Assembly (NCBI GenBank): GCA_964422035.1
Contig: CAYQZQ010000001.1
Coordinates: forward strand, 377,013-441,012
Direction: 5' to 3'
Length of the DNA stretch: 64,000 bases
Origin: an uncultured Pseudomonadales bacterium
GTDB lineage: Bacteria > Patescibacteriota > Microgenomatia > UBA1400 > Chazhemtobacteraceae
Part shown: piece by piece, positions 15,912 through 31,524 of the stretch
Layout: every line of letters starts with the position of its first letter
Numbering within the stretch: position 1 is the first letter of the stretch
Position numbers and translations under genes: made by a program
Notes under the pieces: model-generated
The model's input: the letters and a program-made list of their open reading frames with translations, nothing else
Database searches by the model: none
Told to the model about the DNA's origin: nothing

Positions 15912-16565
15912 TTAGTTAGTTTTATGGTGAAACAGGCTTTTGAGTCGATTATGGATGAGGGTGAAAATATAGAAACAAGTTTGGTAAAGAATGGTCAAAT
16001 CTTTTTTTAGGGAGGCGTTTTGCAGGTAGTCAAGATCCATATTCATCCATTGATTGAAACTGACAGAATGGGGACCTTTAGCAACCCAAGTACTGGTAAT
16101 GCCCGGTTTGATGAGGTGGCGCAGTTTTTGATTAGCTGTGAGTTGGTTGGCTTCTTGAATAGGTAAGGGGCGGGGGCCGACCAAGTTCATATTGCCCCTT
16201 AATACATTAAATAGTTGCGGGAGTTCATCGAGGCCGGTTTTGGAAAGAATTTTACCAAAAGAAGTAAAACGGGGATCGTTTCTGGCTTTGAAAACCGGGC
16301 CGTCAGCAAAGTTGAGGTGTTGGTACTTTTTTTGTAGCTGGTGAGAATCGGGATGCATGGTGCGAAATTTGTAGATTTTAAAAGGCTGATTATCTTTACC
16401 GGTGCGTTTTTGGGTAAAAAGAATGGGGCCGTTGGAGGTGAGTTTTATTAGACTGGAAATAAAAATTGAAAGTGGAAACAAAATAATTATTAGTATTATT
16501 GTGAGAAAATAATTAAGGATGACTTTTGTCAATGAATACGAGTATGAGTTGGGTTTGATTTTCAT
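15912..16565 (-). CDS. phosphoglycosyl transferase, bacterial sugar-transferase (PglC/WbaP C-terminal domain) family
   Basis: Single N-terminal TM segment followed by 'PILFTQKRTGKDNQPFKIYKFRTM...LDELPQLFNVLRGNMNLVGPRPL', the Bac_transf signature. Confidence 0.9.
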   Translation of the reverse strand: MKIKPNSYSYSLTKVILNYFLTIILIIILFPLSIFISSLIKLTSNGPILFTQKRTGKDNQPFKIYKFRTMHPDSHQLQKKYQHLNFADGPVFKARNDPRFTSFGKILSKTGLDELPQLFNVLRGNMNLVGPRPLPIQEANQLTANQKLRHLIKPGITSTWVAKGPHSVSFNQWMNMDLDYLQNASLKKDLTILYQTCFYIFTLIHNRLKSLFHHKTN

Positions 16566-16584
16566 AAGAATCCAGTGATATCCG

Positions 16585-17037
16585 TTAATTTGAGGGTTTT
16601 AGATATATGATTTGGAGCTCATTTTTTTTTGCAACTAGATGTTCCTGCTTGGCTCCTTGTGATTGCTTCCATCCTGGGGTCATAAATATGTGAGAGATGT
16701 ACTTTTGAGGATGACCAATGAGTTCTTTCCAGAAATTGTTCCAGTTTTGCGTTGTGAGATTTTGGGCGTTGATCTGTTCGAATATTTTTTGACTGAAGAT
16801 GTCTGTGGCAGAAAATATGGGATAGTTATGCTTCCGGCGCAATTCAGTCGTGTACTTCTCTAGCATCTTTAAGTTTTTACTGATGTGCTGAGGGCCGTTG
16901 GAGGTGATAATTCCTGATACATAGCCAATATTTTGATATTCATTTTTTCTTAATTGCCTGAATAACTTGAATAGGTTTTTCTTTATGTCTTCGAGGTCGA
17001 TGGAGTGCTGTATTGCGTTCTGTATGACTGTTTGCAT
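16585..17037 (-). CDS. hypothetical protein, possibly DUF4406/nucleoside-2-deoxyribosyltransferase-like
   Basis: 'IGYVSGIITSNGP' resembles the DUF4406 N-terminal motif. The similarity is weak. Confidence 0.3.
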   Translation of the reverse strand: MQTVIQNAIQHSIDLEDIKKNLFKLFRQLRKNEYQNIGYVSGIITSNGPQHISKNLKMLEKYTTELRRKHNYPIFSATDIFSQKIFEQINAQNLTTQNWNNFWKELIGHPQKYISHIFMTPGWKQSQGAKQEHLVAKKNELQIIYLKPSN

Positions 17038-17103
17038 ATTTGTAATATATCAGATTTTCAGTTTAGTTTTGATGTTGATAAATGTATAATGGCGGTTATG
17101 GAA

Positions 17104-29414: not shown

Positions 29415-29420
29415 TAGATT

Positions 29421-30521
29421 ATGTGGCGAAGACTTTTATTTTACTGTCTGATAGGGGGGTTGTTATTAGTGGGAGGGACGGGAAAGTATGTATTTGAGGT
29501 AAGTTTTGCAAGTTTTTTTTTGTTGGCATTGGCGTTAGCTGGATATTTGATAGTTGAGAAGGAAATAGAATTACCTCAGGGGTTTTGGTGGTATGTGGCT
29601 TTTTTGGTAATACAAGTGGTTAGTTTGTTTTGGACGTTGGATGTCAGGCTTTCGTATGAGTATTTGGTGATGTATATATCTGGTGGGATGTTTTGGGTTT
29701 TGGCATATAATTGGAGTGAGTTGATTGAGGGTTGGCTGGGTGATTTAGTGTTAAGTTTGGGAATGGTTTTTGGAGGGTTGTTTGGATGGGTGAAGCTGAA
29801 AAATATTCGAGTGATTAGGGGTTGGAGTTTGTATTTTTATAATAGTAAATTCTTTAATAATAACCATATTGGTAATTGGTGGGCTGTGGTGGTGGTAATC
29901 TTGTTAATTTGGTGGATGAGGAAGAAAAAGTGGTGGCAAGTGGTTCTGGGAGTAGTAGGAATGGGAATTATAATTATGTCACAGTCGCGGGCGGCTTTGG
30001 TAGCTATAGTGGGTGGGTTATGGTATTTATATGAAAAAAGAAAAATCAAGACAAGAAAATGGATGGAGTGGTCGGCAGGAGTGTTGTTATTGGCAGGATT
30101 TGTATTTATAGGGTTTGATAAAAGTACTTTGTTGTCTCGACAATATTTTGTACAGGCTTTGGCTGGCTTGTGGCACAATCCTTTAGGTGTGGGAGTGGGT
30201 AATTTTAGGCATATCTCTGGTGATTCGGCCATGCACTGGCTGGGGTTAAGTGATTTTGCAATAGTGGTGTTTAATGTGGTTTTAGAGATGATGGTTAGTT
30301 TGGGCTGGTTAGGGTTAGTGTTTGTGTGGTGGTTGGTGAAGAGAGTTGAGGAGGTGTGGAAAATGGAAGGGGAAAGGGGTTTAGTGGAGAGAACGGTGTT
30401 TTTAGTGTTGACGGTTAATTTTATGTTCGCGGCTACTTACTTTCAGCCCAGTATGTTTTGGTTGTGGATGTTGAGCTTGGGGGTGAGTCAGGGAGTAATA
30501 GAGTTGAGAGGAGGAGAATAA
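29421..30521 (+). CDS. divergent Wzy_C/O-antigen-ligase-like polytopic membrane protein (second copy)
   Basis: 'MSQSRAALVAIVGGLWYL' and 'SRQYFVQALAGLWHNPLGVGVGNFRHI' match the Wzy_C core. The conserved 'HN' motif seen in 23440..24882 is not evident here. Confidence 0.55.
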   Translation: MWRRLLFYCLIGGLLLVGGTGKYVFEVSFASFFLLALALAGYLIVEKEIELPQGFWWYVAFLVIQVVSLFWTLDVRLSYEYLVMYISGGMFWVLAYNWSELIEGWLGDLVLSLGMVFGGLFGWVKLKNIRVIRGWSLYFYNSKFFNNNHIGNWWAVVVVILLIWWMRKKKWWQVVLGVVGMGIIIMSQSRAALVAIVGGLWYLYEKRKIKTRKWMEWSAGVLLLAGFVFIGFDKSTLLSRQYFVQALAGLWHNPLGVGVGNFRHISGDSAMHWLGLSDFAIVVFNVVLEMMVSLGWLGLVFVWWLVKRVEEVWKMEGERGLVERTVFLVLTVNFMFAATYFQPSMFWLWMLSLGVSQGVIELRGGE

Positions 30522-30579
30522 CGGAAACCGAAGCAGGTGTGAGAATAAAAAAACGGTGATGTGAAATTAAGAGCGGGAC

Positions 30580-31524
30580 TTAAAGATTTTCTTTGTTTTC
30601 TTTGTACCACTCGATTGTTTTTTTGAGTCCGGTGTTAAAATCGGTTTCGGCCTCAAAGCCAAATTCTTCTTTAGCTTTGGAAATATCTAGTTTTCTCCTA
30701 GGTTGTCCGTCTGGCTTTGATGTATCCCAAACAAGCTCGCCATTAAATCCTGTCAAATCTTTAATTTTTTCAGCTAGGTCTTTGATGGAAATCTCATAGC
30801 TTGAACCTAAATTAACTGGTTCAGATTTATTATAATGCTCGGTTGCTAGAAGAATTCCTGTTGCTGCATCTTCTACATAAAGAAACTCACGAGTGGGTTT
30901 ACCAGTGCCCCAGACTACTACTTCTTCTTTGCCCTCTTCTTTTGCATCGATGAATTTTTTGATAAGGGCAGGGATGACATGAGATGATTTAGGATCGAAG
31001 TTATCCCTTGAGCCGTAAAGATTGACAGGAAGAAGGAAGATAGCATTAAAGTCATATTGATCCCGATATGCTTGTGCCTGAACTAGAAGCATTTTCTTGG
31101 CTAAGCCGTAAGGAGCGTTGGTTTCTTCTGGGTAACCTTTCCAGAGATCATTTTCTTTAAAGGGTATAGGGGCAAATTTAGGATAAGAACAGATAGTACC
31201 GATGGCAACAAACTTTTCCACATCAGCCAGACGTGATTCTTCCATCATGTGAGTGCCCATGAGGATGTTGTCGTGGTACATTTTGCCGGGGATTTTTTGA
31301 TTATAGCCAATACCACCTACAACTGCTGCCAGGTGGATGACCACATCAGCATTCTGAACAACTTCTTTACAAGCTTGTTTTTCAGTAAGATCGTAGTTTT
31401 TGGAGCGGGGAATAAAGATTTCTTTGGGTTTGAGTTTCTCAAGTCTTTCTACTAAATGAGAACCGAGGAAGCCTGAACCACCTGTTACTACTACCTTTTT
31501 GTCTTGCCAAAATTTTTTATTCAT
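30580..31524 (-). CDS. fcl: GDP-L-fucose synthase (GDP-4-keto-6-deoxy-D-mannose 3,5-epimerase/4-reductase)
   Basis: Rossmann '[16 protein letters not shown]'. '[11 protein letters not shown]', 'PYGLAKKM' (YxxxK) and '[17 protein letters not shown]' are typical of Fcl. ORF track start 31581 runs into the tRNA; a start at 31524 ([10 protein letters not shown]) fits better. Confidence 0.9.

What the first reader, a model, noticed from the sequence alone, without database searches (positions are those of the whole stretch)
15912..31524. Large glycan-assembly locus adjacent to the sortase/adhesin operon: candidate surface-protein O-glycosylation system
Contiguous genes: a PglC-type initiating phosphoglycosyl transferase, a Wzm/Wzt ABC-2 exporter, two paralogous TylF/CmcI-like methyltransferases, a PLP decarboxylase, two Wzy_C-domain proteins, GT2 x2, GT4, a split Alg13/Alg14 glycosyltransferase and GDP-fucose synthase, with galE just beyond the rRNA gene. 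The Wzy_C family includes WaaL, Wzy and the PglL/PilO O-oligosaccharyltransferases. Every large secreted protein in the window (CAP protein, giant adhesin, LTD protein) carries long Pro-Thr/Ser linkers (TPTPTPTPT...), which are classic substrates for general O-glycosylation. In ABC-transporter-dependent pathways, terminal methylation is a known chain-termination signal (E. coli O8/O9a WbdD paradigm). The gene set is therefore consistent with an undecaprenyl-linked, methyl-capped fucose-containing glycan that a PglL-like Wzy_C enzyme transfers to the PT-linkers, or to a cell-wall polymer. This is inference.
Basis: inference. Interest (0 to 1): 0.7.

Follow-up and report, generated by a model that had tools for sequence, protein, structure and literature searches.

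The report
Conserved Patescibacteria surface-glycan assembly locus
This 16-kb gene cluster builds a sugar polymer on a lipid carrier, exports it and hands it to a WaaL-like ligase; many ultra-small (CPR/Patescibacteria) bacteria share its core, it is not tied to the neighbouring adhesin genes, and what it decorates is still unknown.

Summary
The gene inventory is largely right. The locus holds a small PglC-type phosphoglycosyl transferase, Wzm/Wzt, two paralogous Methyltransf_24 enzymes flanking a PLP decarboxylase, GT2 x2, GT4, a PssD/PssE pair and an Fcl-like gene, with galE beyond the 16S gene.

Corrections:
- The second (29421-30521) scores below Pfam threshold and has Phe at the catalytic His position.
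- Wzt lacks the cap-binding domain of the O8/O9a paradigm.
- No gmd, Wzx or LCP gene lies in the 64 kb.
- The 1157-aa Ig-domain protein has no PT linker.

Thirteen other Patescibacteria loci carry the same translationally coupled trio DUF4330-Wzy_C-GT2, usually with an ABC-2 exporter. None has a sortase or PT-linker protein within 10 kb.

This is a lineage-wide, ABC-transporter-dependent envelope-glycan locus ending in a WaaL-superfamily ligase. Protein O-glycosylation (as with WsaB in S-layer glycan clusters) remains possible but has no specific support. A lipid acceptor (as with TacL) is about equally likely.

Separately, the locus coincides with an extreme GC-skew block (~0.48) that has reshaped its proteins.

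The parts
15912..16565 (-). Small monotopic polyprenyl-phosphate phosphoglycosyl transferase (PglC/WbaP C-terminal-domain type), the initiating enzyme
   Evidence: Pfam Bac_transf 189.8 bits. NCBIfam EPS_sugtrans matches the C-terminal domain only. Homologues lie in 5 of 13 related loci.
16585..17037 (-). DUF4406-like protein of 150 aa; role unknown and probably not core
   Evidence: Pfam DUF4406 26.7 bits, over the C-terminal 31 aa only. No homologue in related loci.
17092..18204 (+). IMPDH/GMP-reductase-like enzyme without a CBS insert; embedded in the block and probably housekeeping
   Evidence: Pfam IMPDH 339.6 bits. NCBIfam IMP_dehydrog 306.6 bits in two stretches, below cutoff. Also sits next to the locus in L013.
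18194..18961 (-). Wzt-type ABC ATPase, 255 aa, without a C-terminal carbohydrate-binding module
   Evidence: ABC_tran only. Best NCBIfam hits are galactan Wzt/RfbE and TagH.
18973..19755 (-). Wzm-type ABC-2 permease
   Evidence: ABC2_membrane 53.1 bits. NCBIfam hits are galactan Wzm and KpsM.
19808..20605 (+). Methyltransf_24 SAM methyltransferase, paralogue 1
   Evidence: Pfam 54.5 bits. 36% identical to paralogue 2.
20602..21813 (-). Fold-III PLP decarboxylase (Orn/DAP/Arg family, LysA-like but below cutoff)
   Evidence: Orn_Arg_deC_N 103.9 bits. TIGR01048 173.8 bits against a cutoff of 297.9. The same methyltransferase/decarboxylase arrangement occurs in L005, L007, L011 and L016.
21849..22607 (+). 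Methyltransf_24 paralogue 2; its stop overlaps the DUF4330 start by 4 bp
   Evidence: Pfam 56.9 bits. Homologue directly upstream of DUF4330 in 7 of 13 related loci.
22604..23443 (+). DUF4330 protein: N-terminal membrane anchor plus extracytoplasmic beta-barrel domains; invariant partner of the ligase
23440..24882 (+). WzyC1: WaaL-fold (GT-C_B) glycan ligase, predicted active
24879..25757 (+). GT2 glycosyltransferase, third member of the invariant trio (4-bp overlap with WzyC1)
   Evidence: Glycos_transf_2 101 bits. Homologue downstream of Wzy_C in 13 of 13 loci.
25768..26856 (+). GT4 glycosyltransferase
   Evidence: Glycos_transf_1 144.8 bits. PglJ/BshA-like by NCBIfam, below cutoffs.
26834..27778 (-). 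Second GT2 glycosyltransferase
   Evidence: Glycos_transf_2 104.5 bits. 52% identical orthologue in L001.
27775..28269 (-). PssE/Cps14G-type (Alg13-like) catalytic half of a split GT
   Evidence: Glyco_tran_28_C 32.4 bits. NCBIfam PssE 61.9 bits.
28260..28718 (-). PssD/Cps14F-type (Alg14-like) membrane half of the split GT
   Evidence: Alg14 55.8 bits. NCBIfam PssD 133 bits, above the cutoff of 110.
28758..29414 (+). Unknown 218-aa protein with an N-terminal membrane anchor
   Evidence: No Pfam or NCBIfam hit. Orthologues in L001 and L013.
29421..30521 (+). WzyC2: divergent Wzy_C paralogue, probably catalytically dead (Phe at the His position)
   Evidence: Wzy_C 18.2 bits, below the gathering score of 31.7. 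hhalign to the WzyC1 family Prob 79%, E 1.7e-5. Phe in the window and P0031, His in P0032-34. Its homologue in L006 is not in a glycan locus.
30580..31524 (-). GDP-L-fucose-synthase-like SDR, outside the skew block and not conserved with the locus
   Evidence: NCBIfam Fcl 286.9 bits against a cutoff of 500. No gmd in the window.
35217..36200 (-). UDP-glucose 4-epimerase GalE
   Evidence: TIGR01179 406.1 bits, above the cutoff of 262.

Best explanation
The block is one copy of a lineage-wide Patescibacteria (CPR) envelope-glycan locus that uses the ABC-transporter-dependent route.

Proposed steps:
1. The small PGT primes a polyprenyl phosphate with a sugar phosphate.
2. PssD/PssE, two GT2s and a GT4 extend the chain on the cytoplasmic face.
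3. The two Methyltransf_24 enzymes, perhaps with an amine made by the PLP decarboxylase, decorate it.
4. Wzm/Wzt export the finished lipid-linked glycan.
5. WzyC1, a WaaL-fold enzyme with intact Arg/Arg/His residues, works with its translationally coupled partner DUF4330. It transfers the glycan en bloc to an acceptor outside the membrane.

WzyC2 is a degenerate paralogue.

Shown: gene families, WaaL fold and residues, conservation of the DUF4330-Wzy_C-GT2 trio, absence of Wzx.
Inferred: order of steps, ligase rather than polymerase role, chemistry of the decoration.

The acceptor is unresolved. My split is:
- surface or S-layer protein, ~0.3
- membrane glycolipid (TacL/WaaL-like), ~0.3
- peptidoglycan or another polymer, ~0.1
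- WzyC1 is a polymerase after all, ~0.15
- something else, ~0.15

I see no evidence that the neighbouring sortase/adhesin genes are its specific clients.
For: Family assignments.

WzyC1:
- The only solved relative by sequence profile is WaaL 7TPG. R288/R355/H400 align with R191/R265/H313.
- In the related O-OTase PglS the equivalent His is required, since H324A inactivates it (PMC12800693).

Pathway logic:
- No Wzx/MATE-type flippase anywhere in the locus, and an ABC-2 exporter is present.

Conservation:
- DUF4330-Wzy_C-GT2 occurs in the same order and strand in 13 of 13 distinct Patescibacteria loci at 28-41% identity.
- A Wzt homologue lies within 10 kb in at least 10 of them.
- 4-bp stop/start overlaps link MT2, DUF4330, WzyC1 and GT2a (coordinates).
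- The subfamily has 238 50%-identity cluster representatives at E<=1e-30.

Precedents for Wzy_C ligases in monoderm bacteria: WsaB/WsfB and TacL (PMC5727136).
Against: - No experiment exists, and the acceptor cannot be read from sequence.
- No Wzy or PglL structure turned up among the fold-search matches, so similarity to WaaL does not exclude those functions.
- hhalign against E. coli WaaL, WzyE and WbbH was non-significant for all three.
- The PGT is found near the trio in only 5 of 13 relatives, and the variable genes differ widely. The glycan itself is therefore not conserved.
- DUF4330 has no informative structural relative, so its role is a guess.
- The rest of the genome could not be inspected. 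An LCP ligase, gmd or an S-layer gene could lie elsewhere.
Confidence: 0.65

Rival explanations
1. First reader's model. WzyC1 is a PglL/WsaB-type O-oligosaccharyltransferase that puts the glycan on Ser/Thr of the PT-rich stalks of the neighbouring adhesin, CAP and LTD proteins, or on surface proteins generally.
For: - The gene set mirrors Geobacillus/Paenibacillus S-layer glycan clusters: PGT, Wzm/Wzt, methyltransferase and a Wzy_C O-OTase.
- S/T/P-rich stalks exist in three secreted proteins of the window.
- From my own knowledge, PglL-type enzymes prefer low-complexity Ser/Ala/Pro-rich regions.
- The PGT, sortase and giant adhesin genes are co-directional, and no terminator-like site was found between them.
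- PqqD-like peptide-binding genes recur in related loci.
Against: - No sortase homologue and no PT-linker ORF lie within 10 kb of the trio in 13 relatives.
- There is no PglL_A or Wzy_C_2 domain and no C-terminal periplasmic domain.
- The 1157-aa surface protein has no PT linker.
- PT runs are favoured by the C-rich coding strand of minus-strand genes.
- No S-layer gene or detectable TPR partner is present.
Confidence: 0.25
2. WzyC1 is a TacL/WaaL-like ligase. It transfers the exported glycan onto a membrane glycolipid and makes a lipoglycan, a functional stand-in for LTA or LPS in a monoderm CPR cell.
For: - The only detectable sequence and fold relative is the lipid-acceptor ligase WaaL.
- WzyC1 is a compact, almost all-membrane protein (480 aa against 397 aa for TacL) with no extra soluble domain.
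- TacL shows that Wzy_C ligases act on glycolipids in monoderms.
- The invariant adjacent GT2, or the GT4, could make the anchor. This is inference.
Against: - The WaaL bias is partly an artefact, because WaaL was the only member of the superfamily that the fold searches returned.
- No glycolipid-synthase assignment could be made.
- From general knowledge, CPR bacteria lack lipid biosynthesis, so an anchor would depend on scavenged lipid.
- DUF4330 has no counterpart in the WaaL or TacL systems.
Confidence: 0.3
3. WzyC1 is a Wzy-type polymerase with DUF4330 as a chain-length co-factor. Final attachment is made by an LCP-type enzyme encoded elsewhere, giving an ordinary wall polysaccharide.
For: - Wzy_C is shared by polymerases and ligases, and sequence cannot separate them.
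- A membrane-anchored extracytoplasmic partner is reminiscent of Wzz.
- No attachment enzyme other than the Wzy_C proteins is visible in the window.
Against: - No Wzx flippase is present in this locus or in any of the related loci whose genes were listed. An ABC-2 exporter, which moves finished chains, is present instead.
- DUF4330 has one TM helix and beta-barrels, not the two-TM coiled-coil architecture of Wzz.
- No LCP gene lies in the 64 kb.
Confidence: 0.15

Closest known systems
S-layer glycan (slg) clusters of Geobacillus stearothermophilus NRS 2004/3a and Paenibacillus alvei (WsaP, Wzm/Wzt, WsaE methyltransferase, WsaB/WsfB O-OTase)
   Same: Monoderm host. WbaP-type initiating PGT, cytoplasmic chain assembly, a methyltransferase, ABC-2 export and a Wzy_C-domain terminal transferase.
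   Different: - No linked S-layer structural gene and no rml genes.
- The TPR partner or domain seen in WsaA and WsfB was not detected.
- The methyltransferases are stand-alone Methyltransf_24 enzymes, in several relatives paired with a PLP decarboxylase, not a domain of a multidomain GT.
- The DUF4330 partner has no counterpart.
- No detectable sequence similarity was established.
WaaL O-antigen ligase (Cupriavidus metallidurans, PDB 7TPG/7TPJ)
   Different: About 15% identity. The host is a CPR bacterium with no sign of LPS genes in the window, so the lipid A-core acceptor is not expected. WzyC1 is about 70 residues longer and has a dedicated DUF4330 partner.
TacL lipoteichoic-acid ligase of Streptococcus pneumoniae
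   Same: A Wzy_C-domain membrane protein in a monoderm that moves an Und-PP-linked polymer to its final anchor.
   Different: TacL acts after Wzx/Wzy-type assembly and is not encoded in the biosynthetic locus. No sequence comparison could be run here.
PglL/PglS/TfpO O-oligosaccharyltransferases
   Same: Wzy_C core and a catalytic His/Arg constellation shared with WaaL.
   Different: PglL and PglS carry a sizeable C-terminal periplasmic domain (Wzy_C_2/PglL_A). WzyC1 ends in TM helices and hits neither model. The acceptor linkage seen for pilA-tfpO is not mirrored by any conserved neighbouring acceptor here.
E. coli O8/O9a WbdD/Wzt chain-termination system
   Same: ABC-dependent export, with methyltransferases encoded in the locus.
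   Different: There is no WbdD-like kinase or coiled-coil. Wzt here is 255 aa without the Wzt_C carbohydrate-binding domain that recognises the cap. The capping model is therefore not supported.

Membership tests
ABC-transporter-dependent polyprenyl-linked glycan pathway | Initiating polyprenyl-phosphate phosphoglycosyl transferase | tested here: met
   Bac_transf 189.8 bits
ABC-transporter-dependent polyprenyl-linked glycan pathway | Wzm/Wzt ABC-2 exporter and no Wzx flippase | tested here: met
   ABC_tran plus ABC2_membrane are present. No Polysacc_synt/MATE hit for any of the 20 ORFs scanned at 15.1-31.6 kb plus galE.
O8/O9a-type capped-chain export (WbdD paradigm) | Wzt C-terminal carbohydrate-binding module recognising a terminal methyl or phosphomethyl cap | tested here: not met
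   Wzt is 255 aa with only the ABC_tran domain at residues 38-169.
WaaL/Wzy_C (GT-C_B) superfamily | Wzy_C domain above the Pfam gathering score | tested here: met
   WzyC1 scores 63.2 bits against 31.7. WzyC2 fails with 18.2 bits.
WaaL/Wzy_C (GT-C_B) superfamily | WaaL-like fold | tested here: met
WaaL/Wzy_C (GT-C_B) superfamily | Conserved Arg/Arg/His active-site residues | tested here: met
   WzyC1 R288/R355/H400 align with CmWaaL R191/R265/H313 and are invariant in 15 homologues. WzyC2 has Phe at the His position.
PglL/PglS-type O-oligosaccharyltransferase | C-terminal periplasmic domain (Pfam PglL_A / Wzy_C_2) | tested here: not met
   No hit even at E<=10. The model ends in TM helices.
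PglL/PglS-type O-oligosaccharyltransferase | Glycan found O-linked to Ser/Thr of proteins | not testable with these tools
   Needs glycoproteomics.
Dedicated adhesin/sortase-substrate glycosylation system | Conserved genetic linkage of the glycan locus with the sortase or PT-linker proteins | tested here: not met
   0 of 13 related loci have a sortase homologue or PT-linker ORF within 10 kb. Whole genomes were not available.
Gram-positive S-layer glycan (slg) cluster | Linked S-layer gene and a TPR partner or domain of the O-OTase | tested here: inconclusive
   No S-layer-type gene was recognised in the window. The 218-aa protein upstream of WzyC2 gives no TPR hit. A Wzy_C-TPR fusion does exist in relative L007.
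Wzy-dependent polymerase | Co-occurrence with a Wzx flippase and a Wzz/PCP co-polymerase | tested here: not met
   None in the window locus or in L001-L008.
TacL-type lipoglycan ligase | Transfer to a membrane glycolipid anchor | not testable with these tools
   Only the Wzy_C domain and the monoderm context are shared.
GDP-L-fucose pathway | Gmd plus Fcl | tested here: not met
   Fcl-like at 286.9 bits, below the cutoff of 500. No GDP-mannose dehydratase in the 64 kb.

The most novel reading that the evidence does not exclude
DUF4330-Wzy_C-GT2 is an undescribed, Patescibacteria-wide glycoconjugate-ligation module. A WaaL-fold enzyme with an obligate beta-barrel membrane partner would perform general O-glycosylation of surface proteins (S-layer, pili, adhesin stalks). 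Alternatively it would build a protein- or lipid-anchored glycocalyx that replaces LPS/LTA in these lipid-auxotrophic episymbionts.
Probability: 0.2. Interest if true: 0.7.

Novelty: new variant of a known kind. Interest (0 to 1): 0.4.

Why it matters
CPR/Patescibacteria live attached to host cells, and almost nothing is known about the chemistry of their surface. This locus gives a conserved, recognisable module: a WaaL-like ligase with a DUF4330 partner and a GT2, fed by an ABC exporter. It is a concrete target for finding what these cells display to their hosts, and it would be the first Wzy_C ligase system defined in the group. As it stands it is an expected kind of locus, a surface-glycan cluster with an uncharacterised partner protein. 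It is not evidence for adhesin glycosylation.

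Tried and rejected
- Exact look-up of the window's WzyC1 and of the 100%-identical P0001 found no contig on record. The cluster look-up gave no accession or organism name, so the source genome (a 725-kb contig) could not be inspected.
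- phmmer of both Wzy_C proteins against the PDB gave nothing. Only the family profile reached WaaL.
- hhalign of the WzyC1 family against E. coli WaaL, WzyE and WbbH was non-significant in all three cases. A ligase-versus-polymerase call by sequence was therefore not possible.
- NCBIfam has no model for either Wzy_C protein, DUF4330 or the methyltransferases.
- Idea rejected: DUF4330 is a type IV pilin-like substrate, as in pilA-tfpO. The acidic residue at the start of the TM helix is not conserved (E/D/Q/H/A) and the model lacks a pilin helix.
- Idea not supported: DUF4330 is the dedicated acceptor. It has no invariant Ser/Thr, and Tyr88 is Phe in L001.
- Idea not supported: the 218-aa protein upstream of WzyC2 is a WsaA-like TPR partner. 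It gives no TPR hit at E<=10.
- The promoter/terminator scan was at chance level and did not settle operon structure.
- The afdb50 fold library was unavailable.
- Literature searches found nothing on DUF4330. Nothing specific turned up on O-antigen ligases or protein glycosylation in Patescibacteria.

Full report
**Observation**

Six-frame ORFs plus Pfam/NCBIfam scans confirm most of the listed genes between 15.9 and 31.6 kb. On the minus or plus strand as marked:
- small Bac_transf PGT (217 aa, -)
- DUF4406-like protein (-)
- IMPDH-like enzyme lacking a CBS insert (+)
- Wzt (-) and Wzm (-)
- Methyltransf_24 (+), Orn/DAP-type PLP decarboxylase (-), Methyltransf_24 (+)
- DUF4330 (+), Wzy_C (+), GT2 (+), GT4 (+)
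- GT2 (-), PssE (-), PssD (-)
- unknown 218-aa membrane protein (+)
- weak Wzy_C-like protein (+)
- Fcl-like SDR (-)

Beyond these come tRNA-Ile, a LAGLIDADG ORF, the 16S rRNA (32556-34095), another LAGLIDADG ORF and GalE. The two methyltransferases are true paralogues (36% identity). MT2, DUF4330, Wzy_C and GT2 are joined by 4-bp stop/start overlaps.

PT or S/T/P-rich stalks exist in the giant SdrD/SpaA-domain protein (aa ~42-95), the CAP protein (aa ~212-235) and the LTD protein (aa ~155-255). The 1157-aa Ig-domain protein has none, and no LPXTG motif was found.

**The two Wzy_C proteins**

WzyC1 (23440-24882) scores 63 bits on Wzy_C. A 15-sequence family alignment shows the invariant motifs R-x2-G-x2-GHPTF, SRS-x-W, R355, G-x-G-x-N and PVHN.
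- The family profile hits one solved protein, Cupriavidus WaaL 7TPG (E 1.3e-4). It aligns R288, R355 and H400 with R191, R265 and H313.
- The AlphaFold model (pLDDT 79.5, pTM 0.87) matches WaaL only by Foldseek.
- The same Arg/His constellation is used by the O-OTase PglS, where H324A is inactive (PMC12800693).
- There is no PglL_A or Wzy_C_2 hit and no C-terminal soluble domain. No NCBIfam model matches.
- hhalign against E. coli WaaL, WzyE and WbbH is non-significant in all three cases.

WzyC1 is therefore an apparently active WaaL-superfamily enzyme whose subclass cannot be read from sequence.

WzyC2 (29421-30521) is below the Pfam threshold. It is related to the WzyC1 family by profile-profile comparison (E 1.7e-5). 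In the window and in an 83%-identical homologue the His position is Phe, whereas three more distant homologues keep His. Its homologue in L006 is not in a glycan locus. I read it as a degenerate paralogue.

**Conservation in relatives**

All relatives come from Patescibacteria MAGs, including a Gottesmanbacteria genome; three of the nine are titled Gammaproteobacteria or Pseudomonadales in their records. Contexts were taken from assemblies and from one GTDB-wide scan, then tabulated by tblastn. Thirteen distinct loci carry DUF4330-Wzy_C-GT2 in the same order and strand at 28-41% identity to WzyC1.

| Feature within 10 kb of the trio | Loci (of 13) |
|---|---|
| Wzt homologue | at least 10 |
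| Methyltransf_24 directly upstream | 7 |
| Methyltransferase/decarboxylase arrangement | 4 |
| PGT | 5 |
| PssD/PssE and the 218-aa protein | 2 |
| Sortase homologue | 0 |
| PT-linker ORF | 0 |

The variable genes differ widely: radical-SAM enzymes, ATP-grasp, sulfotransferase plus PAPS synthesis, spermine-synthase-like, PqqD, QueC-like and Asn-synthase-like genes. The glycan chemistry therefore varies around a constant ligation module. The subfamily numbers 238 50%-identity representatives at E<=1e-30.

**Mechanism**

An initiating PGT, cytoplasmic GTs, an ABC-2 exporter and no Wzx define the ABC-transporter-dependent route, in which chains are completed before export. A polymerase is then unnecessary, and the Wzy_C enzyme is most simply the terminal ligase.

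Both known kinds of Wzy_C ligase occur in monoderm bacteria:
- protein O-OTases of S-layer glycan clusters, WsaB/WsfB (PMC2943079)
- the glycolipid ligase TacL (PMC5727136)

I cannot separate them here.

- Wzt lacks the cap-binding Wzt_C domain.
- The methyltransferases recur next to a decarboxylase in four relatives.
- The Fcl-like gene is below cutoff and lies outside the conserved block. No gmd lies within the 64 kb.
- Adjacency to the sortase/adhesin genes is not conserved.

No LCP-family gene lies in the window either.

DUF4330 is a membrane-anchored protein with beta-barrel domains and no informative structural relative. A pilin-like or acceptor role was examined and not supported.

**Side observation: GC skew**

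The locus coincides with a block of extreme plus-strand GC skew. It averages 0.48 over 15.9-30.5 kb and reaches 0.68 in 500-bp windows. Flanking values are about 0.0-0.2 at unchanged G+C.

| Four-fold degenerate sites | Plus-strand genes | Minus-strand genes |
|---|---|---|
| Locus | 0.63 | 0.77 |
| Flanks | 0.20 | 0.65 |

- Minus-strand proteins of the locus contain 15% G+A+V+D+E, against 31% in the flanks. Their orthologues in unskewed relatives mostly have about 22-33%.
- Three relatives (L001, L013, L016) show the same skew with the same polarity. Nine do not.
- This fits a strong strand-specific mutation bias acting on weakly constrained genes. It does not fully explain why the locus exceeds its flanks at synonymous sites.
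- The bias lowers HMM scores, and it may explain the His-to-Phe change in WzyC2.
- It also favours Pro/Thr codons in minus-strand genes, which weakens PT linkers as evidence for glycosylation.

**Verdict**

This is a real, conserved Patescibacteria surface-glycan locus with a WaaL-fold ligase and an uncharacterised partner protein. It is a new variant of a known kind. The adhesin O-glycosylation reading is possible but unsupported.

Noticed in passing
window 15900-30520 (onset ~14600, sharp end ~30520); also L001 6000-21446, L013, L016: An extreme plus-strand GC-skew block (mean 0.48, up to 0.68 per 500 bp) coincides with the locus, although genes lie on both strands. It extends to codon positions 1 and 2 and halves the G/A/V/D/E content of minus-strand proteins. 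The same polarity is seen in the homologous loci of three relatives and is absent in nine. The excess over the flanks at four-fold sites is unexplained.
   Followed up: partly
window 29421-30521: The second Wzy_C-like protein has Phe where its homologues, WzyC1 and WaaL have the catalytic His. An 83%-identical homologue (P0031) shares the change, so it is not a sequencing error.
   Followed up: yes
window 36950-41124 (-): A VanZ / LTD-domain protein with an S/T/P stalk / coiled-coil M23 peptidase / FtsX / FtsE-like ABC ATPase operon. It closely resembles the patescibacterial VanZ-ABC-peptidase-LTD operon described in the Lipocone-superfamily paper, although the peptidase here is M23 rather than the papain-like or Gly-Gly types named there.
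   Followed up: partly
window 31568-34629 (-): The 16S rRNA gene is flanked on both sides by LAGLIDADG-type ORFs (31914-32429, 34120-34629) and followed by tRNA-Ile. No 23S gene follows; the next gene is the Fcl-like CDS. The listed TTG start of that CDS would overlap the tRNA, so the start at 31524 is more likely.
   Followed up: no
window 3900-7373 and 8126-15076 (-), C-termini: Both large surface proteins end in a shared motif, LA(Q/R)YWW, followed by a hydrophobic helix. In the 1157-aa protein a short basic tail follows as well. Neither has LPXTG, so the substrate motif of the adjacent sortase (15148-15807) is unclear.
   Followed up: no
L003 6354-6638, L004 4754-5044, L005 5120-5383, L007 2035-2274 and neighbours: Related loci repeatedly carry PqqD-like (peptide-binding RRE) genes next to QueC-like, NTP_transf_5, radical-SAM/SPASM or Asn-synthase-like genes. 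This hints at a peptide-linked chemistry in some variants. No such gene is present in the window.
   Followed up: no
window 19832-19885 and 22152-22205: A short shared motif, N(L/M)GIK(K/R)WL(E/N)R, sits at the N-terminus of methyltransferase 1 and inside an insertion of methyltransferase 2. It may be an amphipathic membrane-binding helix.
   Followed up: no
L003 18311-20983: In one relative the homologous locus lies directly beside dnaA-dnaN, that is, next to the likely replication origin. This may bear on the skew question.
   Followed up: no
window 58916-59548 (-); L003 106-981; L004 2009-2884; L006 14654-14911: Polyamine-type enzymes recur near these loci: spermine-synthase-like and AdoMet decarboxylase in relatives, the Orn/DAP decarboxylase in the window locus, and a Spermine_synth-like gene elsewhere in the window. 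This raises the untested idea of an amine substituent on the glycan.
   Followed up: no
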